Source: Phycisphaerales bacterium
GTDB taxonomy: Bacteria; Planctomycetota; Phycisphaerae; UBA1845; Fen-1342
Assembly (NCBI GenBank): GCA_016795025.1
Contig: JAEUIR010000051.1
Span: 1 to 22,627, forward strand
Length of the DNA: 22,627 bases
Direction of reading: 5' to 3'
Shown here: piece by piece, positions 1,514 through 14,751 of the stretch
Layout of the letters: the number at the start of each line of letters is the position of its first letter
Numbering within the stretch: the first letter of the stretch is position 1
The notes under the pieces: model-generated
Database searches by the model: none
What the model was told of the DNA's origin: nothing
Seen by the model: the letters and a program-made list of their open reading frames with translations, nothing else
Position numbers and translations under genes: made by a program

Positions 1514-2055
1514 AATCCCATGAAAACTTCATCCACATAGCGATCGCCGGATAGCTTAGCCTGGCCGGGGCGCACGCCTTCATCAACGAAGCCAAGACTG
1601 CGGTATAGCCCCTGACCGACATCATTGGAGCTGAATACCGACAGGCAAACTTTTTCGATCGTTGGGTGCGCGCGCGCCCAATCGATCATCGCCAGCATGA
1701 GCAATCGGCCGACGCCGCGACCGCGCCACTCGGTGGCGATCGAAATGCCGAGCGTGCCGGTATGTGCGATGCGCCGGCGATTTCCGACAAAGAAGCCGCA
1801 GCCGCCCACGATTTTTCCCTCAACCAACCCAATGAGCAGCAGGCTCGCCGGGTTATCGCGGATGCCGCGCAGAAAATCCGCCTCGGCCTCCGGCGTCGGC
1901 GGAAGCTCGTCGGGCTGCGTTGCGACCTGATCAGTGGTGGCGTGGGCTTCTCGAACGAAATCGAGCATTTCGGCTGCTTCTTCGACGGCGGCGCTGCGGA
2001 TCTCAAGCCTGACGCCCTCGCGCGTTTTCCGAAATATCGGCGGATGCGTCGCCAT
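1483..2055 (-). CDS. GNAT family N-acetyltransferase
   Basis: From the internal ATG at 2055: MATHPPIFRKTREGVRLEI...GKIVGGCGFFV...IATEWRGRGVGRLLMLAMIDWARAHPTIEKVCLSVFSSNDVGQGLYRSLGF. The GNAT acetyl-CoA-binding motif R/Q-x-x-G-x-G/A is present as RGRGVG. The upstream 104 codons of the 294 aa ORF overlap the FIST gene region and are low-complexity. Confidence 0.75.
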   Translation of the reverse strand: MATHPPIFRKTREGVRLEIRSAAVEEAAEMLDFVREAHATTDQVATQPDELPPTPEAEADFLRGIRDNPASLLLIGLVEGKIVGGCGFFVGNRRRIAHTGTLGISIATEWRGRGVGRLLMLAMIDWARAHPTIEKVCLSVFSSNDVGQGLYRSLGFVDEGVRPGQAKLSGDRYVDEVFMGLWVKPRADAK

Positions 2056-2199
2056 CAGCGTTCCTCGACGAGTTGGAAAGCGGAGTATGACGGGATTGAC
2101 CGCCGCTGGCGAGTCCCCGGCCGACGGGCGAATTGGAACGAGGCGCGCCGCCGCATACAATCGGGAACGGAGTCGGGAAAAAGAAGGGTTGCATCGCGC

Positions 2200-3390
2200 A
2201 TGAAGATCGCTTCGGCAGTGGTGAATCTGGTCGGGACTGAAAACACGGTCCGGCACCTCGTCATGCAACTCCGGCAGGAGCTGGGTGACGGCCCGATCGA
2301 TTTGCTCATTTTGTTCGGCAGCGCGCATTTTGAAGGCGACTTGGAAAAAATCGCGCCGGAGCTGCAAGAAGCGCTGTCACCGCGGACGTTCATCGGTTGC
2401 ACGGCCGACGCGGTGATTCGCGACGACCAGGAATACGAGCATCAACCGGGGCTTGTCGCGTGGGCGGCGCGCATGCCCGGAACTCGCTGCGTTTCGTTTC
2501 ATTTGTCGCAGGATGATCTAGCGCGCCTGGACACGCCTGAGGCGCTGCGCGAACACCTGAATGTCCCGGCGGATGAGAGTCCATACTTCGTGCTGCTGGG
2601 CGATCCGTTCAGCGCGAATCCGATACAGTTGCTCGATCGCATCAACACGGCTTATCCGAGGCGACCGGCGATCGGCGGCATGGCATCAGCCGGCGAGCAG
2701 CCGGAGCAAAACGTGCTGGTGTTTGAGGGGCAGACGCTGCGGCATGGTACCGTGGGCGTGGCGCTTTGGGGCAATGTCGAAATGGACACGATTGTGTCGC
2801 AGGGGTGCCGGCCGATCGGGCGGCATCTGGTTGTGACCAAAGCGGAGAACAACATCATTCACCAACTCGGCGGCAAGCCAACGCTCGCAGCCGTCAATGA
2901 GATTTTGAATGAATGCCCACAAAGCGACATTGATCTGGCCAAAAAACGCGGACTGTTGATCGGTTGCGTGATTAACGAATACATGAAGACGTTTGGGTCG
3001 GGCGATTTTCTGATTCGCAACCCGATCAGCATCGACGAAAAATCCGGCGCGATGGCCGTGAACGACATGATGCGCACGGGGCAGACGGTGCAGTTTCATG
3101 TGCGCGACAGCCAATCGGCGGCGGAGGATTTGCAGTATTTACTATCGGTGAAAGCGACAGAACCGGCCGCCGGCGCGCTGTTGTTCAGTTGCAACGGCCG
3201 CGGCTCGCGCTTTTTTCCCGATCGACATCACGACGCGCGGGCAGTGGTTGACGGACGCTCGCAAATGCCGGTGGCCGGGTTTTTCTGCGCCGGCGAAATC
3301 GGTCCGGTGGGCAACCGCAATTTTTTGCACGGGTTTACGGCGAGCATCGGATTCTTTCGCCCAACAAACGGCGATCATGGCGGGGGATGA
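2200..3390 (+). CDS. Stand-alone FIST (N+C) sensor domain protein
   Basis: MKIASAVVNLVGTENTV...LLILFGSAHFEGDLEKIAPEL...GVALWGNVEMDTIVSQGCRPIGRHLVVTKAENNIIHQLGGKPTLAAVNEIL...ALLFSCNGRGSRFF...AGFFCAGEIGPVGNRNFLHGFTASIGFF. The C-terminal GFFCAGEIGP...N.LHGFT block is the FIST_C signature. The start is moved from 1666 to the ATG at 2200, which has a purine-rich RBS (aagaaggg) 11 nt upstream; the upstream part of the ORF is antisense to the GNAT gene. Confidence 0.7.
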   Translation: MKIASAVVNLVGTENTVRHLVMQLRQELGDGPIDLLILFGSAHFEGDLEKIAPELQEALSPRTFIGCTADAVIRDDQEYEHQPGLVAWAARMPGTRCVSFHLSQDDLARLDTPEALREHLNVPADESPYFVLLGDPFSANPIQLLDRINTAYPRRPAIGGMASAGEQPEQNVLVFEGQTLRHGTVGVALWGNVEMDTIVSQGCRPIGRHLVVTKAENNIIHQLGGKPTLAAVNEILNECPQSDIDLAKKRGLLIGCVINEYMKTFGSGDFLIRNPISIDEKSGAMAVNDMMRTGQTVQFHVRDSQSAAEDLQYLLSVKATEPAAGALLFSCNGRGSRFFPDRHHDARAVVDGRSQMPVAGFFCAGEIGPVGNRNFLHGFTASIGFFRPTNGDHGGG

Positions 3391-3763
3391 TGGACGAAAG
3401 CGTTTTCGGCCGAAGCAGCGGATTCGAGCCCGCGCGGAGTTTGATGCGGTTTTTCGGAACGGCGTTCGCGTGCAGAATGAATCGCTCACCGTGTGGTTAT
3501 TGCCGGCGGCGGCGGGGCGAGTGGAAACGCGACTTGGGATTGTCGTTTCCCGCAAGCACGGCGGCGCGGTCGCGCGCAATCGATTGAAGCGGCTGATTCG
3601 GGAGGCCTTCCGCATGTCGGCGCGTGAGTTGCCGATCGCCAGCGATATTCTCTGTCAGCCGCGCGCCGGCCGGAAACTCTCGCTCGACGAGGCTTGCGCT
3701 TCGCTGGTGCGCCTCGCGCGGGCGGCGCTGGGCCGGGGTTCGCGGGCTCCACAGGGGCATTGA
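3377..3763 (+). CDS. rnpA: Ribonuclease P protein component
   Basis: MAGDDGRKRFRPKQRIRARAEFDAVFRNGVRVQNESLTVWLLPAAAGRVETRLGIVVSRKHGGAVARNRLKRLIREAFR. This is the classic RnpA RNR-motif region (R-L-G-x-x-V-S-[KR]-K-x-G-x-A-V-x-R-N-R-x-K-R-x-x-R-E). Size is ~128 aa. The start ATG at 3377 overlaps the FIST stop (ATGGCGGGGGATGA). Confidence 0.85.
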   Translation: MAGDDGRKRFRPKQRIRARAEFDAVFRNGVRVQNESLTVWLLPAAAGRVETRLGIVVSRKHGGAVARNRLKRLIREAFRMSARELPIASDILCQPRAGRKLSLDEACASLVRLARAALGRGSRAPQGH

Positions 3764-3769
3764 CGGCAC

Positions 3770-4921
3770 ATGAGCACGAACGGCGCGACGGAACGCCCGA
3801 TTCTAATTCTCTCCGCGTCCGCCGGCGCCGGGCATATGATGGCGGCGCGCGCGATTGAACAAGCGCTGCGCGCGGCGGCGCCGGGGGTGTCGATCGAGGT
3901 TCTGGACGTGCTGAGCGCGGCGAGCGGCGCTTTTCGGCGAATGTATGCCGGCGGGTATTTGTCGCTGGTGCGCCGCGCTCCGGTTCTGATGGGCGTGCTA
4001 TATGAGCGCATGGATCAACCCGTCCCAAACATCGCGGACCGTGCCCGCCTGCTGATTCAGAATGCCCACGCACCGCGCATCGCGCGCTGCATTCGCGCAC
4101 ATCGGCCGCGCGCGATTGTGAATACGCATTTTCTCTCCGCGGAAATCGTGTCGCAGATGCGGCGCAGCGGGGCGCTCAATTGCCCGCAGGCGACCGTAAC
4201 GACGGACTTTGAGACGCACCGCCTGTGGGTGCAAGAGCCGACCGAGCGCTACTTCGCTGCCAGCGAGCAAGGGCGCGTCCTGCTGCGGCGCTGGGGCGTG
4301 GACGATCTGCGCATCCGAGTAACCGGAATTCCTGTAATGGATGCGTTTCGCCCGACGGCGAATCAGAGCGCCGTGCGAACTGAGTTAGGGCTTGATCCGG
4401 CCCGGCCGGTTGTGCTGTTGCTGTGCGGGGGTTTTGGTGTCGGCCCGGTCGCGCTGGCCTTTCAGGAGATTCTGGCGCTGTTGGATACGCAGTTGGTGGC
4501 CGTGTGTGGTCGCAACGAAGCGCTGCGCGAGCGGTTGGCACTGATGTCGAAAGGGGCGGAGTCGCGGTGCAAGGTCGTCGGGTTCACGAACGAGATGCAT
4601 CGATACATGCAAGCGGCCGATGTTGCGGTTACGAAGCCGGGCGGCCTGACATCGAGCGAGGCGCTGGCGTGCGGTTTGCCGATGGTCGTGGTGAATCCAA
4701 TTCCCGGGCAGGAGTCGCGCAACAGCGATTTTCTTCTCGAAAGCGGCGCGGCGATCAAAGCGAACGACGCGTGCCTGGTTGGACCGCGAATCCGCAGCTT
4801 ACTCTCGTCGCCGACACGACTTGCGGCGATGCGCGATGCCGCGCTTCGCGAGGCCCGTCCGGATGCGGCGAGGCAGATCGCCGAGGCGGTCGGGGAAATG
4901 TGCGGTGCGTCGGCCGTTTGA
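3770..4921 (+). CDS. GT28 glycosyltransferase of the UgtP / MGDG-synthase family (processive diacylglycerol glycosyltransferase-like)
   Basis: Colinear similarity to B. subtilis UgtP recalled from memory: ILILSASAGAGHMMAARAIEQAL vs VLILTANYGNGHVQVAKTL; VTTDFETHRLWVQEPTERYFAASE...VTGIPV vs [24 protein letters not shown]...ITGIPI; GGFGVGP vs GGGLGLGP; VTKPGGLTSSEALACGLPMVVVNPIPGQESRNSDFLLESGAAIKAND vs ISKPGGLTVSEALAMNLPMIIFDPIPGQEEANTAFLTESGAAVRADD. The start is 7 nt after the rnpA stop. Confidence 0.8.
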   Translation: MSTNGATERPILILSASAGAGHMMAARAIEQALRAAAPGVSIEVLDVLSAASGAFRRMYAGGYLSLVRRAPVLMGVLYERMDQPVPNIADRARLLIQNAHAPRIARCIRAHRPRAIVNTHFLSAEIVSQMRRSGALNCPQATVTTDFETHRLWVQEPTERYFAASEQGRVLLRRWGVDDLRIRVTGIPVMDAFRPTANQSAVRTELGLDPARPVVLLLCGGFGVGPVALAFQEILALLDTQLVAVCGRNEALRERLALMSKGAESRCKVVGFTNEMHRYMQAADVAVTKPGGLTSSEALACGLPMVVVNPIPGQESRNSDFLLESGAAIKANDACLVGPRIRSLLSSPTRLAAMRDAALREARPDAARQIAEAVGEMCGASAV

Positions 4922-4990
4922 CATTCGGCGGGTGGGTTCAAACAATTGACAACCCGCAAACCGCATTGCCGGGATTGAACGGAGGTCGAT

Positions 4991-5731
4991 GTGCGCTGGC
5001 TTGTCGCCATCCCCGCTTACAACGAAGAGCAGCACCTTCCGGCCGTGCTGGATGCCGTGCGCGAATACACGCGGCACATCGTCGTTATCGACGACGGCTC
5101 GACGGACGCGACCAGCGCGATACTCGACGCGCGGCCGGAGATTCAGCGCGTCACGCATGGAATCAACCTGGGATATGGGCGCAGTGTGATCGATGCATTT
5201 GATTACGCCGCGGCGCATCATTTCGATTGGGTTATCACGATGGATTGCGACGAGCAGCACGAGCCGGCGCAGATTCCGCATTTTGTCGCGGAAATGACGC
5301 GCGATCGCGCGGATGTTATCAGCGGCTCGCGCTATCTGATTCCGCATCCGCAAGATGACGCGGCGCCGCTCGACCGGCGCCGCATCAACCACACGATCAC
5401 GCGCGTATTGATGCAACGACTGGGTTTGCGGCTGACAGACTCGTTTTGCGGTTTCAAGGCGCATCGCGTGTGCGCGATGCAGCGGCTTCGCCTGAGTGAA
5501 ACCGGCTACGCGTTTCCGCTGCAATTCTGGGCGCGGTGCGTGCAGGAAGGATTGCGCATTACGGAGATTCCCGTCAGGCGGATTTATCGCGATGCGTCGC
5601 GCGTCTTCGGCGGCATGCTCGATGATCCCGAACATCGCCTGCGACACTACTTGGAAGTTCTCGAACGCACCATTCAGCAATCGCCCGTGCCGTGCGGCGC
5701 GCGACGCGCAGCATCGGCCGCGTGTCATTGA
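4991..5731 (+). CDS. GT2 glycosyltransferase, Dpm1/Ppm1-like (polyprenyl-phosphate sugar synthase family)
   Basis: GTG start at 4991 with a GGAGG RBS at 4981-4985. VAIPAYNEEQHLPAVLDAV...HIVVIDDGSTDATSAIL (GT2 DxD-region), MDCDEQHEPAQIP (DAD-x-QH-like motif) and ISGSRY all match the Dpm1-type GT2 pattern. The last ~25 residues are low-complexity, so the true C-terminus may be functionally shorter. Confidence 0.7.
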   Translation: MRWLVAIPAYNEEQHLPAVLDAVREYTRHIVVIDDGSTDATSAILDARPEIQRVTHGINLGYGRSVIDAFDYAAAHHFDWVITMDCDEQHEPAQIPHFVAEMTRDRADVISGSRYLIPHPQDDAAPLDRRRINHTITRVLMQRLGLRLTDSFCGFKAHRVCAMQRLRLSETGYAFPLQFWARCVQEGLRITEIPVRRIYRDASRVFGGMLDDPEHRLRHYLEVLERTIQQSPVPCGARRAASAACH

Positions 5732-5817
5732 GCTCGCCCGTGTTGCTGGATCGCAGTCGTCTGAAGACTCCGGCGGGACCGTTGGGGGTTCTCTGCGAAC
5801 CGTCGGCGCTGCGCGAA

Positions 5818-7257
5818 ATGCTCGACGGCAGTGTTGAGGAGTTGCGCGGCAAACCGGAAACGACGCTTGTGAGCGGAAGGCCGCTCAGCGGTTGGCGGAG
5901 CGAGCTGCGTGACGCATTTGGCCTGGTCGAGCCTGCGATCGTCACGGGGCATCAGGTCGAGTTCTACCATGCGGGGGTTTTCGCGAAGGTGGTCGCGGCG
6001 CATCATCTGGCGGAGCGAAGCGGTGGAAGCGCGCTGTTCGTCGGCGTGGACAGCGATACGCCCAAAACCGCGCGCTTGACGACCACGCGCATTTCGCATG
6101 GCGCGGCGCAGCGTGTGGAGGTATTGATTCCCGGCGTTGATATGGACGTGTCAATGGAGGCGCAGGAGGCATTGCCGCGCGAGCAGTGGCTGGAGTTCTT
6201 CGCGCGCGTCGCTGATCTATCGCCGGATTACGAATCGAGCGGGCTTCGCGCATTCGCCGACGGATGGCTGGGCGGCGCAGCGGAGCGCGTCGCGATTTCC
6301 GCGGCGATGTCGCGCGGTCACGAAGGCCTGCAAGACGCTCTGGGCGTGAAGCCTACGCCGCATGTGCCGGTTTCCAGGCTGTGTACGACGCCGGCTTTTT
6401 CCGCGTTTTTTGAGCAAATCGCAATGAACGCCGCACGATTCGCAAAGAATTACAACGCTGCGCAGACAGCGTATCGAGCGCGCCACCGCGTGAGATCGGA
6501 TCAACGTCCTGTTCCGCCGCTGGTCGTGGATTGCGATCAGGTGGAACTGCCGTTTTGGATGATTGACGGCGCAGGCCGGCGAAAGCGGCTGTCATTGGAT
6601 CGCGCGCGCGGTCTGCGAGTAGAAGGCGTTTCAGCCGATATTTCTATTCAAAACGCGCTACGCGGCATTCAGGAAGGCACGCACCGAATTCGGCCGCGAG
6701 CGCTCACGCTGACGCTTTTTTTGCGTTTGTTCGTGGCGGATGCGTTTATTCACGGCATCGGCGGCGCGAAATATGATGAGATTACGGACGAGCTCTCGCG
6801 CGAGTTTTTCGGCGCGGCGGCCGCGCCGATCGCGTGCGTCAGCGCGACGCTAAGCCTGTTCGGCGAGCAGCAGGCATTGGTACCGGATGAGCTCGCGGCC
6901 GCGAGGCTCGCCGTTCGTGATCTGCGGCACAATCCCGAACGGTATGTGAAAGGCATCGACGAGGGGCTGATTGCGGAGCGCGACGAGTTGCTGCGCGAAG
7001 CGGCTCGGCTTCGAGCGAATGACAGGCGAAATCGCGCGGCTCGGCGAGCGATTCACCGGTCGCTGCGGGCCGTACACGATCGCATGCTGGCGGTCCAACC
7101 TTGGTTGGGTTCTTCGCTGACTCAGCGGGTCGAAACGCTGCTTTCTCGCAGCCGCGACGAAAAGTTACGCGCAGATCGTGAGGTTTTTTACGGCTTTCAT
7201 TCGCTTTCGGCCTTGCGAGAATTGGTGAGCGCGATCCGCGGAGCGATCGGCTCGTGA
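5818..7257 (+). CDS. Conserved protein with BshC-like motifs (putative bacillithiol-type cysteine-adding enzyme family) and a C-terminal coiled coil
   Basis: AIVTGHQVEFYHAGVFAKVVAAHHLAE...ALFVGVDSDTPKTARL resembles the BshC N-terminal GQQxGLFxGPLYxxxK ... PVFWIAGEDHD pattern. IRPRALTLTLFLRLFVADAFIHGIGGAKYDEITDEL resembles the BshC LRP...FIGGxxEIxYW block. The C-terminal ~110 residues are strongly helical (RDELLREAARLRANDRRNRAARRAIHRSLRAV...), as in the BshC coiled-coil domain. The motifs are recalled from memory, so family assignment is tentative. The start could alternatively be GTG 5740, TTG 5743 or GTG 5692; the ATG at 5818 was chosen. Confidence 0.45.
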   Translation: MLDGSVEELRGKPETTLVSGRPLSGWRSELRDAFGLVEPAIVTGHQVEFYHAGVFAKVVAAHHLAERSGGSALFVGVDSDTPKTARLTTTRISHGAAQRVEVLIPGVDMDVSMEAQEALPREQWLEFFARVADLSPDYESSGLRAFADGWLGGAAERVAISAAMSRGHEGLQDALGVKPTPHVPVSRLCTTPAFSAFFEQIAMNAARFAKNYNAAQTAYRARHRVRSDQRPVPPLVVDCDQVELPFWMIDGAGRRKRLSLDRARGLRVEGVSADISIQNALRGIQEGTHRIRPRALTLTLFLRLFVADAFIHGIGGAKYDEITDELSREFFGAAAAPIACVSATLSLFGEQQALVPDELAAARLAVRDLRHNPERYVKGIDEGLIAERDELLREAARLRANDRRNRAARRAIHRSLRAVHDRMLAVQPWLGSSLTQRVETLLSRSRDEKLRADREVFYGFHSLSALRELVSAIRGAIGS

Positions 7258-7402
7258 GCGGTAACGGGCGCCGAATTACTGCCGCGATTTTCGCCGCGTC
7301 TTCTCGCAATTAGCGTTTTTTCTCCGGAATTCCGCAGTTGTCTCCGCTATGTGCCGGCAGCAAGATACGCGCACCCAGCAGGTCAAATTTGTGGAGCGGC
7401 GA

Positions 7403-9976
7403 ATGGCGGACAATTCAGCGGGGAATTCCGAGCGCGCCCAGCGAATTGAAGCGATCGTGCGGGAATACATCGAATCCATCGGCGACGCTGCCGCGCCGCG
7501 GATGGAGGAGTTGGTGAAGGCTCACCCCGATCTCGCGCCCGACCTTGAAAATGAGTTGCGCGTCGCGGTCCATCAAACACTGAGCGACTCGACCAACGCG
7601 GCCCCGAACTCAACCACCGTGCTGGCCGCGCCGCCTGGGGTGTCCTCGTCGCCGTTGCCGCCGCCGGGCACGTTCGACGGCTATGACATTGTGAGCGTGC
7701 TGGGGCAAGGCGCGCAGGGCATCGTGTACAAGGCGATCGAGCATCGGCCGCGACGAAAAGTCGCGATCAAAATGCTGACGGACGGCATGCACGCGACGGC
7801 GGAGCGTCGGCAACGCTTTGATCGCGAGATCGAGATCATCGCCCGATTGCAGCATCCGAACATCGTCTCGGTGCTGCGCAGCGGCGAAACGCCATTTCGG
7901 CAGCCGTATTACGTCATGGACTATGTCCGCGGCGCGTCGCTCACGCGTTATGTCCGCGATCAGCAGCTCACAGTGCCCCAGGCGCTGCGGCTGTTTGTGG
8001 AAGTATGCGATACCGTTCAGGCCGCGCATGCCCAGAGCATCGTGCATCGCGATCTCAAGCCGTCGAATATTCTGGTCAGCCTGCACGGTCAGCCGCACGT
8101 GCTGGATTTCGGGCTTGCGAAGGCATTCGGCGAGTCTGAGATGGCGGGCTTGTCGCGAACGTATGAAGTTCGCGGCACGGCGCAATACTTGTCGCCGGAG
8201 CAGGCTCGCGGGGAAAACCACGCGCTCGACGCGCGCAGCGACGTGTATTCGCTGGGGGTGATCCTGTTTCAAATCCTGACGGGAGAGTTTCCGTACCCGG
8301 TGATCGGCTCCTTTGAGAGCGTCTTGCACAACATTCGCGAAACGCCGCCGGCGGCGGCCATGCGGGCGTGGTCGATGGACGGCGGAATCGTCCAGCGCGG
8401 CGAGCATGGCGAAATTCGCAAGGTATGCCCGATCGATCAGCGATTGAATCGCATCGTGATGAAATCCTTGTCCAAGGATCGAAATCGGCGCTATGCGAAT
8501 GCGGGTGAGTTGGCGGCGGACATTCGGCGTTATCTGGCGCATGAACCGTTGGAGGCGGTAGGCGACGGGCCGGTTTTTCGTTCTCGCGCCGGATGGCAGC
8601 GCATGATTCGTCGGCAACCAATCATCGGCTATTTCGCGGCGATGCTCGCGACAGTGCTTGTCGCGCAGTCGCTATTTGTGGATATCGTGTTCTATCGCAC
8701 ATCGCTGAATCAGTTCTTTGAGCAGCGCGCAGTGAAATTTCAGCAGGCTCCGCTAGCGCGAAACGCGCGGCTCGCGCATGTTCAGATTTTGGAAATGCAA
8801 TCCACCCAAAGTGTGATGGAGCTTGCTCGAACTCAGGGAATTTCGATCCCGGAGAGTTTGTCGCCGGCAGAATTTCGGAGCAAAGAGTGGTATCGCATTC
8901 GCGAATTACACGGGCAATTGATGCTGCGCCTGGCTGAGAAAATGCGTGATTGGCGGCCTCGCGCGGTGGTGTTCGACATTTTCTTCAATTCAGCCCGACC
9001 GGAGCAGGACGCGGTGTTCGTGCAGGGCGTGGAAGCGCTGCGCGTGAAAGGCGTGCCCGTGGTAGTCGCCGTCGCGCAGCAACCGCTCGCCGTGAATTCG
9101 ACGCTGGAATCCAGCGAGAACATTCTGCCGAAGGTGTTTCCGGGGGGCGCGTCGACGCATTTGAACGAGCGGCCGTGGCTCTATCACCTGGCCATTCATC
9201 GCGTGGGCCATCGCTCGTTTCCGTCGATCGCGCTGGCGGCGTTTCTGGCGGCGAATTACGCCGATTACACCTACACGCTCACGCCCTATGAAGACAAGCT
9301 GTTGGTAGGGCTGTCGCCGCGCGAGTCGTCGCTGCTGTGGGGTTCGTTGATTCCAATCGCCAGATCGCTGGTGATCGAAGTTGGCGACCATGTTCAACTG
9401 CGAACCGCACCGAAGAAACCAGACGGCACTGCCGCGGGCGATGTTGTTTCCCAATTGCTGATCATCCCGCCGCGACAAAAGTGGTTCGCCACGAGCACGC
9501 TCCCTTACGACACGGTATTTGAAAAGAGTGAGTTGGAGCTGCGCCGACTGTTTGACGACCGTTACGTGTTGATCGGCGATACCGATGGCGATTCCAAAGC
9601 GGGTTATGCGGAGTCGGACGAGGAATACCGCGGATACCATGTACATGCGGTGGCGCTGGAGCAATTGGGGGGCAAGCCGGCGGATGATCGCGTTGTGCTG
9701 GAGCGACGCCTGATCTCGGCCACGGGGTCGGTGACATATCCCGCGCTGGCGGCCGTATGTCTGATCGCCTGTCTGTTCGGTGCGCGCCAGGAAGGCCGGC
9801 CATGGGCGCGCCTGCTGACGGGCGTCGGCGCGTCGCTGGTCATTTTTTGCATTTCGCTCGGACTGGTCGCGATTGCGAATATCGACTTAAATCCGTTTGT
9901 ATTCATCGGCGCATGGTGGATGGCAATGGAACTGGCGGCGGCCGTGCGGCGCACGGCGACGGCCGAGGTCATCTAA
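7403..9976 (+). CDS. Hanks-type Ser/Thr protein kinase with a C-terminal transmembrane CHASE2 sensor module
   Basis: Kinase motifs are all present: LGQGAQGIVYKA (Gly loop), VAIKML (VAIK), HRDLKPSNILV (catalytic loop), DFGLAKA (DFG), LSPEQARG (APE-like) and DVYSLGVILFQILTGEFPY. A TM helix follows (IIGYFAAMLATVLVAQSLFVDIVFY), then a ~300 aa extracytoplasmic region with the CHASE2-like block RPRAVVFDIFFNSARPEQDAVFVQGVEALRVKGVPVVVAVAQ, then 2-3 C-terminal TM helices (YPALAAVCLIACLF, LTGVGASLVIFCISLGLVAIANI, FVFIGAWWMAMELAAAV). The start is set at the ATG at 7403, preceded by GGAG; the ORF-track start at 7349 adds 18 poorly fitting residues. Confidence 0.8.
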   Translation: MADNSAGNSERAQRIEAIVREYIESIGDAAAPRMEELVKAHPDLAPDLENELRVAVHQTLSDSTNAAPNSTTVLAAPPGVSSSPLPPPGTFDGYDIVSVLGQGAQGIVYKAIEHRPRRKVAIKMLTDGMHATAERRQRFDREIEIIARLQHPNIVSVLRSGETPFRQPYYVMDYVRGASLTRYVRDQQLTVPQALRLFVEVCDTVQAAHAQSIVHRDLKPSNILVSLHGQPHVLDFGLAKAFGESEMAGLSRTYEVRGTAQYLSPEQARGENHALDARSDVYSLGVILFQILTGEFPYPVIGSFESVLHNIRETPPAAAMRAWSMDGGIVQRGEHGEIRKVCPIDQRLNRIVMKSLSKDRNRRYANAGELAADIRRYLAHEPLEAVGDGPVFRSRAGWQRMIRRQPIIGYFAAMLATVLVAQSLFVDIVFYRTSLNQFFEQRAVKFQQAPLARNARLAHVQILEMQSTQSVMELARTQGISIPESLSPAEFRSKEWYRIRELHGQLMLRLAEKMRDWRPRAVVFDIFFNSARPEQDAVFVQGVEALRVKGVPVVVAVAQQPLAVNSTLESSENILPKVFPGGASTHLNERPWLYHLAIHRVGHRSFPSIALAAFLAANYADYTYTLTPYEDKLLVGLSPRESSLLWGSLIPIARSLVIEVGDHVQLRTAPKKPDGTAAGDVVSQLLIIPPRQKWFATSTLPYDTVFEKSELELRRLFDDRYVLIGDTDGDSKAGYAESDEEYRGYHVHAVALEQLGGKPADDRVVLERRLISATGSVTYPALAAVCLIACLFGARQEGRPWARLLTGVGASLVIFCISLGLVAIANIDLNPFVFIGAWWMAMELAAAVRRTATAEVI

Positions 9977-9992
9977 CGTTTGGGAGCAGAAA

Positions 9993-10733
9993 ATGCGGCG
10001 AGCTTGCATCATCGTGGCGATGGCTGTTGGATTGATGGCCGTCGGCTGCGCACACGATCGAAAGTTCATTGTGGTCAAGGCTCCGGAAGGCATGGGGTTT
10101 GACACGGAGTTCTTCGCGACGACGGCGGCCGTCCCATCGTCCGGCTGGTTCATCACGGGCGAAGTTTTCAAGGGTTCAGGCAACTCGGTGATGTTCATTG
10201 ATTACACCACCGGCTCAACGTATGGGACTGAAATCACGACGCCCGCGACGTATTCCGCCACCAAACCAACGCAAATGCACGTGATCGGCGGAGGGTTTGA
10301 CTATCACGTCATGCTTGTTCCCGAACCGGGTTTCACCGCGACGATGCAATTGACGTCGCCTTCATCGCCGGCGACTTTTGGCGGGAATTACAATTTTGTT
10401 TACATCCATGGGAATTGGCCGACGACAACCACGACGCACACCACCATCGCGGCTTCCGGCTGTTCGATTCTGGTGCTTGGCCGCGTAAATCCGGTCACGA
10501 CTACGACGTTTGACCAGGTTTTCCTGCTGCGGCAATCCACCGCGGGCGGCGGCGTGAGCATTTCCAAGAATGGCGTTCCCGGGTCATATCTGCTCTCGAC
10601 GATCCGCCACTACGTCGAGGTCATCACCACGACGCCCGTCGCGGATTTTCCAATCCAGAATCTGCCGGCTCTGGATCAGGAGCGTTTCTCAAAATCGGAA
10701 GGCCTGGCGCTGCTGACCAGGACCGGACCGTGA
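9993..10733 (+). CDS. Secreted lipoprotein, paralog 1 of a three-member tandem family of unknown function (Thr-rich core GNWPTTTTTHTTIAASG)
   Basis: Starts at the ATG at 9993 with a GGGAG RBS at 9982-9986, 16 nt after the kinase stop. The N-terminus MRRACIIVAMAVGLMAVGC is a lipoprotein-type signal (lipobox-like AVGC). It shares the core ...NYNFVYIHGNWPTTTTTHTTIAASGCSILVLG with the two downstream paralogs. Confidence 0.6.
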   Translation: MRRACIIVAMAVGLMAVGCAHDRKFIVVKAPEGMGFDTEFFATTAAVPSSGWFITGEVFKGSGNSVMFIDYTTGSTYGTEITTPATYSATKPTQMHVIGGGFDYHVMLVPEPGFTATMQLTSPSSPATFGGNYNFVYIHGNWPTTTTTHTTIAASGCSILVLGRVNPVTTTTFDQVFLLRQSTAGGGVSISKNGVPGSYLLSTIRHYVEVITTTPVADFPIQNLPALDQERFSKSEGLALLTRTGP

Positions 10734-10815
10734 CGATCGTCATTCGGCACGCGCGGCGCTTGATCGCCAAGCGCCGCGCTGCGATGATTGCGGCACACCT
10801 TTTCGGAGTGTCTGC

Positions 10816-11496
10816 ATGATGGGGTCGATGCTTGTCGCCGGGTTGCTCACGCTGCATATGTTGCCCGTGCCGGAAGCGCGAGAGATGATCGATGCTGCGC
10901 AAGTCGCTCCAACCGCTCAAATTCTCGGCTACTTTGAATACAAGCCTGACGGCGTCAGCTTCGAATTCAACCGGCTCGGCACACCCACGGCGTTTCCATT
11001 TGACTCGGTTCAATCGATTCAAAAGCCGACGCAGATTCGCTGTACATCTTCAACATGGGATTACACGCTGCTGATTGTGCCGAAATCCGGGCAACAGCCC
11101 ACGCTAAGAATCGAAAAGGACAACGGTACGCCGGGGCGAGCGATTTTCGGGTCCGGCGTGGATTACATCATTCTCAGCGGCCGCTGGCCGGTGATCGAGA
11201 CGGAGCACACGACTTCCGCGGCGGCCGGCGTGGTCATTGTGGTGTACCCGTTCCAGGACAGCGGCAAGAATTTTGATCGCTATGTGATGTTGCAGCGGAC
11301 CGCCAGCGATGGCATGCTGAAGGCGCGATCGAAAGTGGGGTCGCCGCCGGATCAACAACTGGCTCTGCGCGGAGCGTGCGTAGCGCTTGCCTCCGACGAG
11401 GTGCGGCACTCGCATTTGATGGACGACGAAGCGGTGGACAAATCAGTGGCGAAGATGCGCGGTCTGGGCGCGCTGACGCTGACAATTCCGCCGTAA
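10816..11496 (+). CDS. Secreted protein, paralog 2 of the tandem family (core GRWPVIETEHTTSAAAG)
   Basis: ATG at 10816 with GGAG 8 nt upstream. The hydrophobic N-terminus MMGSMLVAGLLTLHMLPVPEA is a signal-peptide candidate. The core VDYIILSGRWPVIETEHTTSAAAGVVIVVYP aligns with paralogs 1 and 3. The upstream block TQIRCTSSTWDYTLLIVPKSG aligns with paralog 1 TQMHVIGGGFDYHVMLVPEPG. Confidence 0.6.
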   Translation: MMGSMLVAGLLTLHMLPVPEAREMIDAAQVAPTAQILGYFEYKPDGVSFEFNRLGTPTAFPFDSVQSIQKPTQIRCTSSTWDYTLLIVPKSGQQPTLRIEKDNGTPGRAIFGSGVDYIILSGRWPVIETEHTTSAAAGVVIVVYPFQDSGKNFDRYVMLQRTASDGMLKARSKVGSPPDQQLALRGACVALASDEVRHSHLMDDEAVDKSVAKMRGLGALTLTIPP

Positions 11497-11617
11497 TGGC
11501 GATCGGTCGGCTCGGGTCTCATTCACCTGACCAGGCGCGGCCGCATGCTTTTGGAGCTCCGTGTTGTTCTTGTAGCGGCGTATTCTCGGTCAGGCTTTGT
11601 TTGGATTGGAATTGACG

Positions 11618-12238
11618 ATGCTGCGAGCGATCGGACTTTTGATGCTGACGGGGTTGATGGGGGGCATCGCGGGCTGTCCTGGAGCTCTCGATTTGTCGGA
11701 TTGCTGCGACGGTCCGGCGGGATTGGCGACTTTCGCAGTGGATTTTTCGTCGCTCACATCGTCACGGTCGTTTGATGTTGCACTGCCGTCGCGTGTGACA
11801 CTCACAGGCGCCGGCGTGGATTGCGTGATCTGGGTGCTGCCGGCGGACACAGCCGGCGCGAGCGTGATCGTCGAACCAAACGGAAGGGCGCGAATCACTG
11901 GAAACTACTCGGCGATCTACATATCTGGTAACTGGCCTGTGGTGGAAACGACGCACACGACAGCGGCCGCGTCGGGCTTGGTCGGACTGGTGCTGCCGGA
12001 GGCCGCCGAGGGTGGTGAATACGTATACAACGCGGCGCTGCTGGCGGCCGGCGGCACTTTGGGTGTCGGTCCCGCGGCGGATCAGCCGATCGCGCTCGGG
12101 CAGTTTCGTTTCATGACGAATCAGGCGGTGGGGGAGGCCACAGCGCTTTCATCCGTGGAGCCAGGCGGCGGGGCGGTATCGACTCAGATCGCGGCCGTGC
12201 TGGCACAGATCGAATCGTTGGAGGCTCGCGTGGAGTGA
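11618..12238 (+). CDS. Secreted lipoprotein, paralog 3 of the tandem family (core GNWPVVETTHTTAAASG)
   Basis: ATG at 11618; the ORF track starts at a TTG at 11597. The N-terminus MLRAIGLLMLTGLMGGIAGC has a lipobox-like IAGC. The core GNYSAIYISGNWPVVETTHTTAAASGLVGLVLPEA aligns with paralogs 1 and 2. The C-terminal 20 residues are helical (STQIAAVLAQIESLEARVE). Confidence 0.6.
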   Translation: MLRAIGLLMLTGLMGGIAGCPGALDLSDCCDGPAGLATFAVDFSSLTSSRSFDVALPSRVTLTGAGVDCVIWVLPADTAGASVIVEPNGRARITGNYSAIYISGNWPVVETTHTTAAASGLVGLVLPEAAEGGEYVYNAALLAAGGTLGVGPAADQPIALGQFRFMTNQAVGEATALSSVEPGGGAVSTQIAAVLAQIESLEARVE

Positions 12239-12296
12239 GCAGTGCCGCGCGGCAGGCGAATCGTCCGGCGATCGGTATCTCGCCCCATGCTGAGTG

Positions 12297-13454
12297 TTAC
12301 TTGCCCCACTCCGTCGCACGTTCGTTTAGCTCGGTAAGCATCTTCACATAGCTGCGATGACGCCGCGGGCTGATGCGGCCGTCGGCGACGGCGGCGAGTA
12401 TCGCGCAGCCTTCCTGATTCACGTGCAGGCAGTCGCTGAACCGGCATTGCACGACGAGCGGCGCGAATTCGGTGAAGTGCAACTCCAACTCGCCTAGTTC
12501 GAGACGCCACAAATCAAACTGTCGAATGCCCGGAGTATCGACAACGAAGCCTCCGAAGTGCAGCGGCAATAGCTGCGCGTTCGTCGTGCAGTGTCGGCCT
12601 TTTTGATTGGCGTCGCTCACTTCGGCCACGCGCAGGCTCGCGCCGGGCTCGAGCGCATTGATGAGCGAGCTTTTTCCGACGCCGCTCTGGCCGGAAAGCG
12701 CGGTGATGTGGCCGCGCATTTCGTCGCGCAAAGCACCGAGCCCGAGACCGCTGCGCGCGCTGGCGAAAATGCAGGTGTAGCCGATGCCGCGATACTCCTC
12801 GACGAGTTCGGCAATGGTGAGCAGCGGCCCGTCATAGTCGTCATCGTCGTAATCCACCTCGCCGGCGACCAGATCGCACTTGCTGAAGCAAATGATCGGC
12901 CGCAGCTCGCCTTTATGTGCGGCGATGAGATAGCGATCGATGAGGTGCGGCTTGGGTTTCGGCTCAGCGACGGCGGTGACGATGAGCAACTGATCGGCGT
13001 TGGCGACCATGACATGCTCGCGCCCGCGAAAGTCGCGCCGCGATAATCGCGAGCGGCGTTCGTCGACGCGCTCGATGACGCCGGCGCTCTGGCCGGGCGG
13101 AGCGTCGGCGAGTTTTGAGAACCACACGCGGTCGCCGACGATGACGGGGCTGCGTTCATCGATGGACACGGTGCGCAGCTTGCGGCGAATGGTGCAATCC
13201 CAGACAACGTCCCCGGCATGCACGCGGCAGACCAGCCCGTGAACCGCGAGCACGACGCCGCTGGTCCACAGTGCCTCGTCGACCAGTGGGGCGTCGTCGT
13301 CGCCGACGATGATCGTGCGTTTTCTCGAAGCCGCGCCTTTTGACCGGACGCTCTCGTTGCGATCGGCGTCGATTGTTTGGCCGGGCTGGTTGCGGTTTGC
13401 GCGAAAATCGACACGGACTTTACGGCCGGTCTTTTTTTTGCCATGCTTGGCCAT
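12297..13454 (-). CDS. rsgA: Ribosome small-subunit-dependent GTPase A (RsgA/YjeQ)
   Basis: Circularly permuted GTPase order: G4-like CFSKCDL, then G1 LSGQSGVGKSSLINAL, then TTNAQLLPLHFGGFVVDTPG (G2/G3). The C-terminal zinc finger CRFSDCLHVNQEGCAI is typical of RsgA. It has an N-terminal Lys/Arg-rich extension and an OB-fold region. Confidence 0.85.
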   Translation of the reverse strand: MAKHGKKKTGRKVRVDFRANRNQPGQTIDADRNESVRSKGAASRKRTIIVGDDDAPLVDEALWTSGVVLAVHGLVCRVHAGDVVWDCTIRRKLRTVSIDERSPVIVGDRVWFSKLADAPPGQSAGVIERVDERRSRLSRRDFRGREHVMVANADQLLIVTAVAEPKPKPHLIDRYLIAAHKGELRPIICFSKCDLVAGEVDYDDDDYDGPLLTIAELVEEYRGIGYTCIFASARSGLGLGALRDEMRGHITALSGQSGVGKSSLINALEPGASLRVAEVSDANQKGRHCTTNAQLLPLHFGGFVVDTPGIRQFDLWRLELGELELHFTEFAPLVVQCRFSDCLHVNQEGCAILAAVADGRISPRRHRSYVKMLTELNERATEWGK

Positions 13455-13589: not shown

Positions 13590-13991
13590 TTATGGCGCCT
13601 GGCCTTTTGGAAAGTCGCATTTTGAGCATTTTCGCGGGTCGTTGGGTCCGGGGGCGAGTTTGACCACATCACCGTGTGCGGGGCAGCGCTTGCCGCGGAC
13701 GCCCTTGCGCTCGTTGCACTTGGGGCAGCGGTATTTCATCATGCGCGTTTGTGCGTCGCTGTCGTAATCGTTGCGGCGCTGCGCGTCGTCAATCTGCCGC
13801 AATGTCATGTCGAACTGCTGATTGCAACCTTCGCAGACGAACGCGACAGCGCTGTCCGCGTCGTCTGGCGCGGCGTCTTCGATCGAGCTGCCTTTTGTGA
13901 ACAGCCGCCATGCGGCCAATCCGCCGACGAGCACGACAACTCCGGCGAGAACATAGGTTTTGGCTGCGGCGCGCCGAAGATGCCGATTCAT
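13590..13991 (-). CDS. Small membrane-anchored Cys-rich (double zinc-ribbon-like) protein, function unknown
   Basis: From the internal ATG at 13991: MNRHLRRAAAKTYVLAGVVVLVGGLAAWRLF (positive N-terminus plus one TM, giving N-in topology). It is followed by CEGC...CPKC and CPAHG...CSKC, i.e. four CxxC-type pairs. The upstream 71 codons of the 204 aa ORF are low-complexity and were excluded. Confidence 0.4.
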   Translation of the reverse strand: MNRHLRRAAAKTYVLAGVVVLVGGLAAWRLFTKGSSIEDAAPDDADSAVAFVCEGCNQQFDMTLRQIDDAQRRNDYDSDAQTRMMKYRCPKCNERKGVRGKRCPAHGDVVKLAPGPNDPRKCSKCDFPKGQAP

Positions 13992-14751
13992 CCGGTTTGC
14001 TCCATTGACGATGCGGCGGCGAGGATACCGCGCGAGTTGCGAGCGAGCGAGTGGCGGACTGCTTTGCGGAATCATCATGCAGCACGCAAGACGCAGAAGG
14101 AAAGCCGGGTGAGCGGCAAATCGCCGGTCAAGTGCCAAGCAAACCGCATGCCGCGAATTTTGCCATGCGCATCGAAAAGTCACGCAAACTGTGTGCCGCG
14201 CCAAACCGCGACAATGTCTTGGAATAACTCCTCGCCCGCCATGAATGCGCCATATCGAATTACGCTTTTTGTCGATTCTTGGAATCGCTTGTCATGCGCA
14301 TTTGCACCGGCCGAAATATGTGCTAGGTTTCTTCTAGTGACGCTGAATGCCGAATGTCGCGGCGCCGGTCGCCGCGGCAACGGGGAACCCAGGCGCGGCA
14401 CACAGTCGGCCGATCGTCGGTCGGCGCCGCAGGGGCGAATCCGCGACGCATGCGGACGCAAACAGCGATTTGCGAGCCCGTCAGCTAACCTCGTAGGCGC
14501 TACCGCTGGAGCGTTGTTATGCGCATCTCATAGCTCATCCGCGGCCGGGCTTCCCGGCAATCCGTCGAATCAAGCTCTCATCCGAACCGCGCAAGCTGTC
14601 GTTCGGGCGCAGCAGGCGCGCGGAGAGCGGCTTCGATCATCGCCCATCATGACGCAATGGCCGCGCGCCAGCGATGCCGCGCCTCACGCGCGAACGCGGC
14701 CTTCCGCATCGCGGTGCGCTGGCTGAACCGCGAGCGAACGAGGAGCCTGTC
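13992..14751. promoter_or_regulatory. Long (~760 bp) divergent non-coding region between the zinc-ribbon gene and the flotillin gene. Likely carries both promoters and a long 5' leader
   Basis: No protein-like ORF on either strand; the 350 aa + ORF 13674..14726 and the 93 aa - ORF have Arg/Ala/Pro-rich, non-protein-like composition. There is a locally AT-richer patch at 14240-14340 (TTGCAC-16nt-TAGGTT, a weak sigma70-like element). An AGGAG RBS at 14741-14745 precedes the flotillin GTG at 14752. Confidence 0.3.

What the first reader, a model, noticed from the sequence alone, without database searches (positions are those of the whole stretch)
7403..10733. Receptor Ser/Thr kinase with a cytoplasmic N-terminal kinase and extracytoplasmic CHASE2 sensor, operonic with the novel secreted-protein family
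The kinase has all catalytic signatures and is followed by a TM helix, a CHASE2-like extracytoplasmic module (VVFDIFFNSARPEQDAVFVQGVEALRVKGVPVVVAV) and C-terminal TM helices. The first lipoprotein paralog begins 16 nt after the kinase stop with its own strong RBS. This looks like a sensor-plus-substrate or sensor-plus-ligand-presenting cassette. The secreted paralogs could be co-receptors or ligand-binding partners of the CHASE2 domain, or phosphorylation-regulated exported cargo. Kinase-CHASE2 modules paired with a diversified periplasmic protein family have not, to my knowledge, been characterised.
Basis: partly seen in the sequence, partly recalled or inferred. Interest (0 to 1): 0.6.

Follow-up and report, generated by a model that had tools for sequence, protein, structure and literature searches.

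The report
CHASE2 receptor kinase with FecR-like lipoproteins
A membrane Ser/Thr kinase with an outward-facing CHASE2 sensor is encoded next to three unannotated exported proteins; these belong to a widespread, fast-evolving lipoprotein family that nearly always follows such kinases in Planctomycetota and is predicted to fold like the iron-signalling protein FecR, which suggests a protein partner for a sensor whose ligand is unknown.

Summary
ORF 7403-9976 encodes an 857-aa Hanks-type Ser/Thr kinase with all catalytic motifs, one TM helix, a CHASE2 domain above Pfam's cut-off, and C-terminal TM helices. A lipoprotein gene starts 16 nt after its stop, followed by two paralogs.

The kinase-CHASE2 architecture is common and already annotated in Planctomycetota. 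The new result concerns the "novel secreted family". It is a divergent branch of a broad lipoprotein family with no Pfam or NCBIfam model. A member lies directly downstream of the STK-CHASE2 gene in 25 of 27 evaluable loci, although the flanking genes differ.

Published neighbourhoods in Burkholderia, Campylobacterota and Sinorhizobium also pair CHASE2 receptors with FecR-domain proteins. My reading is a periplasmic FecR-fold partner that modulates the CHASE2 kinase. This is a new variant of a known kind. The interaction itself is inferred, not shown.

The parts
7403..9976 (+). Receptor Ser/Thr kinase gene (857 aa): cytoplasmic kinase, TM1, periplasmic CHASE2, C-terminal TM bundle
   Evidence: ORF list and translation. 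Identical to an NCBI MAG protein. Pfam Pkinase and CHASE2.
7682..8494 (+). Hanks-type kinase domain (aa 94-364) with a complete catalytic motif set
   Evidence: Pfam PF00069, E=1.2e-46. Motifs GQGAQG, VAIK, HRDLKPSN, DFG and SPE located.
8621..8689 (+). TM helix 1 (aa ~407-429), preceded by a basic cytoplasmic stretch
   Evidence: Kyte-Doolittle scan. Positive-inside residues RSRAGWQRMIRRQ lie just upstream.
8882..9670 (+). CHASE2 match (aa 494-756) within the extracytoplasmic region (aa ~430-775)
   Evidence: Pfam PF05226, 31.2 bits against a gathering cut-off of 26.3, E=2.1e-7. No solved relative by sequence.
9728..9952 (+). C-terminal TM segments (aa 776-794, 807-825 and a weaker ~830-850) carrying the conserved NP..(E)..A.VRR tail
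   Evidence: Hydropathy. The same C-terminal motif is present in distant homologs and in the fragment upstream of P0134.
9982..9986 (+). Shine-Dalgarno-like GGGAG, 6 nt before the p1 start codon
   Evidence: Sequence read.
9993..10733 (+). Paralog p1: 246-aa lipoprotein and the primary partner. All-beta core with a predicted FecR-like fold and a C-terminal helix.
10458..10463 (+). Gly156-Cys157 of p1: family-invariant Gly followed by a nucleophilic residue. Candidate FecR-type self-cleavage site.
   Evidence: Gly is invariant in A6. The next residue is T, S or C in 27 of 27 primary copies. hhalign places this pair on FecR G181-T182, but that alignment is not significant. The FecR cleavage site is from PMC12036975.
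10751..10779 (+). GC-rich hairpin (12-bp perfect stem, 5-nt loop) between p1 and p2; no T-tract
   Evidence: Sequence and RNAfold: the 82-nt spacer folds at -44.4 kcal/mol. L001 and L002 have unrelated strong hairpins at the same position.
10816..11496 (+). Paralog p2: 226 aa, hydrophobic N-terminus without a lipobox Cys. Gly is retained but followed by Val.
   Evidence: Orthologs in L001, L002 and L004.
11618..12238 (+). Paralog p3: 206-aa lipoprotein (lipobox IAGC; alternative TTG start at 11597). Gly is retained but followed by Leu.
   Evidence: Ortholog in L001 only; absent from L002 and L004.

Best explanation
The locus encodes a two-part envelope sensor.

Part 1 is an inner-membrane Hanks-type Ser/Thr kinase. 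Its catalytic domain faces the cytoplasm, and its CHASE2 domain, held between one N-terminal and two to three C-terminal TM helices, faces the periplasm (shown by sequence analysis).

Part 2 is a lipid-anchored periplasmic protein. It is encoded immediately downstream, probably on the same transcript. It belongs to a fast-evolving family that accompanies STK-CHASE2 genes across Planctomycetota (shown by comparative genomics). Its beta-rich core is predicted to adopt the fold of the periplasmic FecR domain (predicted structure).

I infer that the lipoprotein binds or gates the CHASE2 domain and so sets kinase activity in response to an envelope or outer-membrane event. The analogy is FecR-fold domains relaying signals from outer-membrane proteins, and accessory lipoproteins such as LpqB (with MtrB) or NlpE (with CpxA) modulating sensor kinases.

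Every primary copy keeps an invariant Gly followed by Thr, Ser or Cys at the position matching FecR's Gly181|Thr182. A FecR/FoxR-like self-cleavage that yields two associated fragments, whose signal-dependent dissociation is what the kinase senses, is therefore possible. This step is speculative.

In this lineage the partner gene was duplicated. p2 lost its lipid anchor, and both p2 and p3 lost the nucleophile after the invariant Gly. They may act as non-cleavable modulators or decoys.
For: Kinase and CHASE2 domains, motifs and topology.

Tight spacing: 16 nt in the window; -14 to +34 nt in most other loci.

Conservation of the pair: close relatives keep kinase, p1, p2 and sometimes p3. Distant STK-CHASE2 genes (kinase domain 41-53% identical, CHASE2 22-27%) in unrelated gene contexts also have a 205-255 aa lipoprotein directly downstream.

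Family membership by HMM: an HMM built only from 12 distant downstream lipoproteins was run against all six-frame segments of the window and every locus held at that point. It hit only these positions (one copy lies just upstream of the L015 kinase). Hits included untrained loci (L025 7e-44, L026 1e-24, L030, L034, L035, L032, L028) and the window family (L002 p1 4e-11, L001 p1 1e-8, window p1 about 1e-3). No unrelated ORF scored even at a permissive E-value threshold (10, 1).

Tally: 25 of 27 evaluable loci.

Reverse test: P0134 was found by an exhaustive, context-blind HMMER search using the window-family profile (E=1e-4 over 1.8e9 proteins). It scores 1.7e-34 with the distal HMM. It sits just after the C-terminal TM motif typical of these kinases. 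P0139 lies 12 nt after a Pkinase+CHASE2 gene.

Two STK-CHASE2 plus lipoprotein pairs occur in one MAG (L009 and L015).

Lipoprotein distances track kinase and CHASE2 distances (Mantel r=0.84 and 0.72), so the pair is inherited as a unit.

Motif: Gly followed by T/S/C in 27 of 27 primary copies. FecR G181|T182 cleavage: PMC12036975.

Precedent: CHASE2 receptors encoded next to FecR-domain proteins in Burkholderia (PMC5192318), Campylobacterota (PMC9239204) and S. meliloti cyaD1-smc02177 (PMC5498481). CHASE2 cyclases sense a protein signal through an outer-membrane protein (PMC13001267).
Against: No interaction, co-transcription or phosphorylation data exist. A multimer model could not be run.

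FecR similarity rests on one AF2 model from a 17-sequence alignment (mean pLDDT 68.8). Foldseek against the PDB found nothing.

Pfam gives no FecR hit for any member or for the family consensus. hhalign against FecR is not significant (E=0.46 and 0.35).

The Gly-nucleophile pair could be purely structural. PupR itself lacks G-T at that position (alignment).

In the only genetic test of a CHASE2-adjacent FecR-domain protein (S. meliloti SMc02177), the protein was not needed for signal perception (PMC5498481).

The Mantel correlation is no stronger with CHASE2 than with the cytoplasmic kinase domain, so there is no specific co-evolution signal.

L022 and L023 lack the partner within about 1 kb downstream.

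The loci were sampled through one CHASE2 motif (SLRRLHG..M), so they represent a subclade.
Confidence: 0.55

Rival explanations
1. The lipoproteins are co-expressed output or effector proteins of the envelope, not sensors. They share an operon with the kinase so that their dosage follows it, or they act downstream in the same physiological process, without touching CHASE2.
For: In S. meliloti the FecR-domain protein SMc02177, encoded next to the CHASE2 cyclase CyaD1, is needed for the pathway's phenotype but not for signal perception (PMC5498481). No direct interaction evidence exists here. The Mantel test shows no CHASE2-specific co-evolution.
Against: The pairing persists at about 15% lipoprotein identity, in unrelated gene contexts, and in several copies per genome. 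The exposed parts of both proteins diverge fast: CHASE2 46% and lipoprotein 59% against 83% for the kinase domain in the nearest relative. FecR-fold domains are known as protein-protein signalling modules (PMC12036975).
Confidence: 0.2
2. The lipoprotein is an assembly or stability factor for the kinase. It would help the large CHASE2 domain and its 1+3 TM bundle to fold or insert, or protect it from periplasmic proteases, and would carry no signal.
For: Near-obligate adjacency and very short or overlapping intergenic spacers (-14 to +34 nt) suit stoichiometric co-production. Outer-membrane transducers protect FecR-type anti-sigma factors from proteolysis before the signal arrives (PMC11637429, title and abstract only).
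Against: A pure chaperone role does not explain recurrent duplication and divergence of the partner (window p1-p3; L006, L028 and L015 with two copies). It also does not explain strict retention of the Gly-T/S/C pair in primary copies only.
Confidence: 0.15
3. The adjacency is inherited synteny without functional meaning, and the paralogs are lineage-specific orphan exported proteins.
For: Among the closest relatives the whole block FIST - RnpA - GT - GT2 - 500-aa protein - kinase - paralogs is syntenic. A word-indexed search with the narrow family profile found only about 10 proteins.
Against: In distant loci only the kinase-lipoprotein pair is kept; all other neighbours differ. 25 of 27 loci carry the pair. 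The reverse look-ups agree.
Confidence: 0.04
4. The paralogs are substrates of the kinase ('phosphorylation-regulated exported cargo'), or the locus is a kinase-based anti-phage defence system.
For: The paralogs are Thr-rich around the HTT motif. The kinase domain matches PADLOC PD-T4-6 and mad6 kinase models and NCBIfam MADS6.
Against: The kinase domain is cytoplasmic and the paralogs carry export or lipoprotein signals, so they meet only before export. The HTT motif is restricted to the local branch. The PADLOC and NCBIfam matches cover only the generic kinase domain (aa about 90-390), and the NCBIfam scores lie far below cut-off (149.7 against 460). The paralogs and the 521-aa neighbour have no defence-model hit. 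No other defence gene was found among the window ORFs scanned against Pfam.
Confidence: 0.04

Closest known systems
CHASE2-domain transmembrane receptors (Pfam PF05226), including Ser/Thr kinase-CHASE2 and metacaspase-CHASE2 proteins
   Same: The CHASE2 HMM is matched above threshold. The layout is one TM before and about three after the domain. The output domain is cytoplasmic. Many Planctomycetota homologs share the same Pkinase+CHASE2 architecture (PMC3501461).
   Different: In cyanobacterial STKs the CHASE2 domain is reported as one of the exceptions to the usual C-terminal placement of extra domains (PMC2176072). Here the kinase is N-terminal. No CHASE2 ligand or structure is known, and an obligate lipoprotein partner has not been described for this class.
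[quoted passage not shown]
   Different: There is no detectable sequence or profile similarity. There is no N-terminal anti-sigma domain and no TM helix; a lipid anchor replaces them. A complete STN-like C-terminal subdomain is not evident. No ECF sigma factor or TonB-dependent transducer was found among the window ORFs scanned. The output is a Hanks kinase, not a sigma factor.
CHASE2 receptor gene clusters with FecR-domain proteins: Burkholderia 'BiofilmReg' operon, Campylobacterota CHASE2 adenylate cyclase cluster, S. meliloti clr-cyaD1-smc02177-smc02178
   Same: A CHASE2 receptor is encoded next to an exported FecR-domain protein. In Burkholderia a lipoprotein also lies downstream of the CHASE2 kinase (PMC5192318, PMC9239204, PMC5498481).
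   Different: Those partners are recognisable by Pfam as FecR (with LysM in Burkholderia), and the Burkholderia lipoprotein is DUF4136. The outputs are histidine kinase or adenylate cyclase. Here the partner is a sequence-orphan lipoprotein, the output is a Ser/Thr kinase, and there are three paralogous partners.
Accessory lipoproteins of sensor kinases (LpqB-MtrB, NlpE-CpxA, RcsF-IgaA); comparison from my own knowledge, not tested here
   Same: A lipoprotein encoded with, or acting on, the extracytoplasmic domain of a membrane sensor so as to set its activity.
   Different: The folds and kinase classes are unrelated. None involves CHASE2 or a FecR-like fold.

Membership tests
Hanks-type Ser/Thr protein kinase (Pfam PF00069) | Kinase-domain HMM match with Gly-loop, VAIK Lys, HRD catalytic loop, DFG and APE-like motifs | tested here: met
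   PF00069 E=1.2e-46. GQGAQG, VAIK, HRDLKPSN, DFG and SPE all present.
CHASE2 receptor (Pfam PF05226) | HMM score above the gathering threshold | tested here: met
   31.2 bits against 26.3, E=2.1e-7, aa 494-756. Homologs carry precomputed PF05226.
CHASE2 receptor (Pfam PF05226) | Extracytoplasmic placement between one TM helix and a C-terminal TM cluster | tested here: met
   Hydropathy: TM at 407-429, then 776-794, 807-825 and a weaker ~830-850. Basic residues precede TM1. Prediction only; no dedicated topology predictor was available.
Bacterial lipoprotein | Signal peptide ending in a lipobox with an invariant Cys | tested here: met
   p1 MAVGC and p3 IAGC. 24 of the 27 family members examined have a lipobox (23 by the regex, plus L038 VGWGC read by eye). 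p2 and its orthologs lack the Cys, so p2 is not a lipoprotein.
FecR domain (Pfam PF04773) | Sequence or profile similarity to FecR | tested here: not met
   No Pfam hit for the three paralogs at E<=0.1, nor at E<=10 for 19 members or 2 consensus sequences. hhalign E=0.46 and 0.35. No PDB sequence hit.
FecR domain (Pfam PF04773) | FecR periplasmic-domain fold | tested here: met
FecR/FoxR self-cleaving sigma regulators | Gly-Thr self-cleavage site with actual cleavage | tested here: inconclusive
   Gly is invariant, and T, S or C follows it in 27 of 27 primary copies (Cys in p1; Val and Leu in p2 and p3). Placement on FecR G181-T182 comes from a non-significant alignment. Cleavage itself cannot be tested in silico.
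Cell-surface signalling system (TonB-dependent transducer / FecR / ECF sigma) | N-terminal anti-sigma domain plus TM in the FecR-like protein, with an adjacent ECF sigma factor and TonB-dependent transducer | tested here: not met
   The paralogs are 206-246 aa with only a signal peptide. Pfam scans of 17 of the larger window ORFs show no sigma factor or TonB-dependent receptor.
DUF4136 lipoprotein (partner of the Burkholderia CHASE2 histidine kinase) | Pfam DUF4136 match | tested here: not met
   No hit for the three paralogs at E<=0.1 or for any of 19 members at E<=10.
Kinase-based anti-phage systems (PD-T4-6, MADS) | Full-length match to the system's kinase and presence of partner genes | tested here: not met
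   PADLOC and NCBIfam matches cover only the generic kinase domain. NCBIfam MADS6 scores 149.7 bits against a cut-off of 460. The partner proteins have no hit.

The most novel reading that the evidence does not exclude
CHASE2 may be a receiver for FecR-fold periplasmic proteins rather than a small-molecule sensor. The Planctomycetota lipoprotein family would be the minimal form of that partner. After Gly|Thr/Ser/Cys self-cleavage, signal-driven dissociation of its two fragments, for example by an outer-membrane event, would be what CHASE2 reads. The same CHASE2/FecR-fold relay would then feed Ser/Thr kinases here, and cyclases or histidine kinases in Proteobacteria and Campylobacterota. That would be a trans-envelope signalling route parallel to FecA-FecR-FecI but independent of sigma factors.
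Probability: 0.2. Interest if true: 0.8.

Novelty: new variant of a known kind. Interest (0 to 1): 0.55.

Why it matters
CHASE2 was defined by sequence in 2003. It is fused to kinases, cyclases, diguanylate cyclases and caspases in many phyla. Yet I found no direct ligand, no solved structure and no mechanism for it. The best-studied case senses a protein signal through an outer-membrane protein (PMC13001267).

A near-obligate periplasmic partner with a FecR-like fold gives a concrete hypothesis that can be tested in a two-gene system: CHASE2 reads a protein partner. It ties together scattered reports of CHASE2 and FecR-domain gene neighbours. It also defines a sizeable protein family that has no Pfam or NCBIfam model.

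The locus is a natural experiment as well. It holds one primary partner that keeps the Gly-Cys pair, and two paralogs that have lost the nucleophile after the Gly.

Tried and rejected
1. Word-indexed searches for the paralog family found only 10 proteins with the narrow profile A2 and 9 with the broad profile A6. The family is too divergent for 5-residue words, so a census was not possible this way.

2. Exhaustive HMMER with the narrow profile gave three family representatives, one real distant member (P0134) and low-complexity noise (P0132, P0133, P0135, P0136).

3. The first AF2 model, from 11 sequences, had pLDDT 47 and was unusable.

4. The afdb50 fold library was unavailable. Foldseek against the PDB gave no hit below E=0.4.

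5. The 12-sequence CHASE2 alignment had no stretch conserved enough for a locus scan. A 4-sequence subset worked, but it restricts sampling to CHASE2 domains carrying SLRRLHG..M.

6. Pfam, NCBIfam and PADLOC scans of the paralogs found nothing: Pfam on the three paralogs, 19 family members and two consensus sequences; NCBIfam on the paralogs, P0134 and P0137; PADLOC on the paralogs only.

7. Profile-profile comparison to FecR was not significant.

8. The promoter and terminator scan of 5600-12600 gave nothing above the shuffled expectation.

9. The mirror-tree test gave no CHASE2-specific signal beyond co-inheritance.

10. L020 (masked N runs), L033 and L036 (too little downstream sequence) could not be evaluated.

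11. The defence-system reading was rejected because it rests only on generic kinase-domain similarity.

Full report
**1. The observation**

The window is a contig of a Phycisphaerales MAG. The kinase protein is 100% identical to an NCBI entry named only "protein kinase", and p1 and p3 are "hypothetical protein".

ORF 7403-9976 (+) encodes 857 aa. Pfam finds Pkinase at aa 94-364 (E=1.2e-46). It finds CHASE2 at aa 494-756 with 31.2 bits, above the gathering cut-off of 26.3. All Hanks motifs are present: GQGAQG, VAIK, HRDLKPSN, DFG and SPE.

Hydropathy gives a TM helix at about 407-429 preceded by a basic stretch. Further TM segments lie at 776-794 and 807-825, with a weaker one at about 830-850. 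This puts the kinase in the cytoplasm and CHASE2 outside.

The kinase stop codon is at 9974-9976. GGGAG follows at 9982-9986 and the p1 ATG at 9993. Three paralogs follow:
- p1, 9993-10733, lipobox MAVGC
- p2, 10816-11496, no lipobox Cys
- p3, 11618-12238, lipobox IAGC

**2. How unusual the kinase is**

It is not unusual. Dozens of the 120 best homologs listed carry both Pkinase and CHASE2, mostly from Planctomycetota or Phycisphaerae. Some are named by JGI as [quoted passage not shown].

STK-CHASE2 fusions are catalogued in cyanobacteria, where CHASE2 is reported as an exception to the usual C-terminal placement of extra domains (PMC2176072). The layout seen here, with an N-terminal effector, a C-terminal CHASE2 and 1+3 TM helices, is described for a metacaspase (PMC3501461). 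No CHASE2 relative has a solved structure detectable by sequence.

**3. The adjacency in close relatives**

Three homologs at 57-61% identity (loci L001, L002, L004) keep the block FIST - RnpA - MGDG-synthase-like GT - GT2 - ~500-aa protein - kinase - p1 - p2. L001 also has p3. On its own this could be plain synteny.

**4. The adjacency in distant relatives**

This is the main result. Three distant STK-CHASE2 genes, about 33-40% identical overall, sit in quite different gene contexts. Each has a Pfam-less 221-252 aa lipoprotein directly downstream, and L006 has two.

I then scanned species-representative genomes and metagenomes using the CHASE2 part only. This gave loci L008-L036.

An HMM built only from 12 distant downstream lipoproteins was run against all six-frame segments of the window and every locus held at that point. 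The outcome was as follows:
- It hit only segments next to the kinase gene, nearly all directly downstream.
- It hit loci that were not in the training set: L025 7e-44, L026 1e-24, L030 2e-20, L034 2e-20, L035 3e-18, L032 2e-15, and two copies in L028.
- It hit one extra copy upstream of the L015 kinase.
- It hit the window family: L002 p1 4e-11, L001 p1 1e-8, L004 p1 1e-7, L001 p3 7e-6, window p1 about 1e-3, window p2 about 1e-2.
- No unrelated ORF scored even at a permissive E-value threshold (10, 1).

In the other direction, an exhaustive HMMER search of 1.8 billion representatives with the window-family profile found P0134, a 248-aa lipoprotein, at E=1e-4. The distal HMM scores P0134 at 1.7e-34. 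Its 1-kb contig begins with ...QFLCNPVIPVISLLVAGEAAALIQRLQRAHR*, which is the C-terminal TM motif of these kinases. P0139 lies 12 nt after a Pkinase+CHASE2 gene.

After removing duplicate loci, 25 of 27 evaluable STK-CHASE2 loci have at least one family member next to the kinase. The spacer is usually -14 to +34 nt. L022 and L023 are the exceptions; an FHA gene lies on the opposite strand there. One MAG carries two separate pairs (L009 and L015).

A full-length alignment is collinear: lipobox, D..L.GP, GW.Y..G.WP, A.G[TSC], RV.LL, YVE, then a C-terminal amphipathic helix.

The "novel secreted family" is therefore a divergent local branch of a broad lipoprotein family linked to STK-CHASE2 genes. 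No member examined has a Pfam, NCBIfam or PADLOC model.

**5. Rates of change**

Against the nearest relative, the kinase domain is 83% identical, CHASE2 46% and p1 59%. Against distant loci the figures are about 47%, 25% and 17%.

Lipoprotein distances correlate with kinase-domain distances (r=0.84) and with CHASE2 distances (r=0.72). The pair is therefore inherited as a unit. The test shows no co-evolution specific to CHASE2.

**6. The fold**

With a 17-sequence alignment, AlphaFold2 gave mean pLDDT 68.8, with 73-90 over residues 81-246. The model has a beta-rich core and a C-terminal helix.

The negatives are these:
- Foldseek found nothing.
- hhalign against FecR is not significant (E=0.46 and 0.35).

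The link to FecR is therefore fold-level only and rests on a predicted model.

**7. A motif that fits the fold**

The only invariant residue of the mature proteins is a Gly, G156 in p1. The residue after it is Thr, Ser or Cys in all 27 primary copies; it is Cys in p1 and its orthologs. It is Val, Leu or Asp only in extra paralogs: window p2 and p3 and their orthologs, and L028 copy 2.

The best hhalign local alignment is not significant. Even so, it places P143 on FecR P167 and G156-C157 on FecR G181-T182. That is the site where FecR is first cleaved, reportedly by an N-O acyl shift as in FoxR (PMC12036975).

Self-cleavage of these lipoproteins is a hypothesis only. The Gly may simply be structural, and PupR lacks G-T at this position.

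**8. Published context**

CHASE2 receptors have been reported next to FecR-domain proteins in three settings:
- Burkholderia, in an operon of RR, LysM-FecR protein, CHASE2 histidine kinase and a DUF4136 lipoprotein (PMC5192318).
- Campylobacterota, where a CHASE2 adenylate cyclase clusters with a phosphodiesterase, a FecR-domain protein and a TPR protein (PMC9239204).
- S. meliloti, with clr, cyaD1, smc02177 (FecR domain) and smc02178 together (PMC5498481).

S. meliloti CHASE2 cyclases respond to a protein signal through the outer-membrane protein NsrA (PMC13001267). This means CHASE2 signalling can run by protein relay across the envelope.

One caution applies. SMc02177 was not required for signal perception (PMC5498481).

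**9. Interpretation**

Shown:
- a receptor STK with a CHASE2 domain
- a conserved two-gene module with a lipoprotein family
- local triplication of the partner gene

Predicted:
- a FecR-like fold for the partner

Inferred:
- the lipoprotein acts on the CHASE2 domain in the periplasm to set kinase activity
- it may do so through FecR-like self-cleavage and fragment dissociation

The rival readings are a co-expressed effector, an assembly factor, mere synteny, and kinase substrate or phage defence. They are listed with their evidence in the rival-explanations section.

The defence reading rests only on generic kinase-domain matches to PD-T4-6 and mad6 models.

**10. Verdict**

The kinase architecture itself is ordinary, and pairing of CHASE2 with FecR-type partners has precedents.

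What is new:
- the extent and near-universality of the pairing in Planctomycetota
- recognition that a sequence-orphan lipoprotein family is the partner
- its predicted FecR-like fold and conserved Gly-nucleophile pair

I rate it a new variant of a known kind, of moderate interest.

Noticed in passing
window 10751-10779 (also L001 11345-11378, L002 ~11655-11675): A perfect 12-bp GC-rich hairpin sits in the p1-p2 spacer; the 82-nt spacer folds at -44.4 kcal/mol. Relatives have strong hairpins of unrelated sequence at the same position. This may mark the end of an ancestral kinase-p1 transcript or an attenuator before the extra paralogs. It has no T-tract.
   Followed up: partly
window 5692-7257 (+): A 521-aa protein with no Pfam, NCBIfam or PADLOC match. 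Its start overlaps the end of the upstream GT2 gene. It is conserved immediately upstream of the kinase in the close relatives (498-519 aa) but absent from distant STK-CHASE2 loci. Function unknown.
   Followed up: partly
window 1666-5731 (+): A conserved block FIST/FIST_C protein - (RnpA-like ORF 3248-3763, inferred from relatives) - MGDG-synthase-like glycosyltransferase (3770-4921) - GT2 (4991-5731) precedes the kinase in all close relatives. The listed FIST ORF (574 aa, GTG start) is about 180 aa longer than in relatives (395 aa) and overlaps a GNAT gene on the minus strand (1483-2367), so its true start is probably later.
   Followed up: no
L015 4134-4931; L006 9196-9960; L028 4411-5049: The partner lipoprotein gene has been duplicated independently in several lineages. 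L006 and L028 have a second copy downstream, and L015 has a copy upstream of the kinase. L006 copy 2 keeps Gly-Thr; L028 copy 2 has Gly-Asp.
   Followed up: partly
window 8700-9700 compared with L001, L002 and L004: Within one gene, the extracytoplasmic CHASE2 part is only 43-46% identical to the nearest relatives while the kinase domain is 79-83% identical. The outward-facing half is evolving much faster.
   Followed up: partly
L005 221-3784; L006 1999-4179: Some distant STK-CHASE2 loci have a second, different Ser/Thr kinase just upstream. In L005 it is an ECF sigma factor plus a TPR kinase; in L006 it is a kinase fused to an FGE-sulfatase domain. This hints at clustering of kinase genes.
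   Followed up: no
window 13590-14204 (-): A 204-aa ORF with a TM segment and CxxC...CxxC zinc-ribbon-like motifs. It has only a weak sub-threshold HypA match (E=0.006).
   Followed up: no
L020 (CP070685.1, 1205552-1218550): The STK-CHASE2 reading frame crosses masked N runs. After the last run it continues into sequence unlike the usual C-terminal TM tail. This locus could not be used for the adjacency tally.
   Followed up: no
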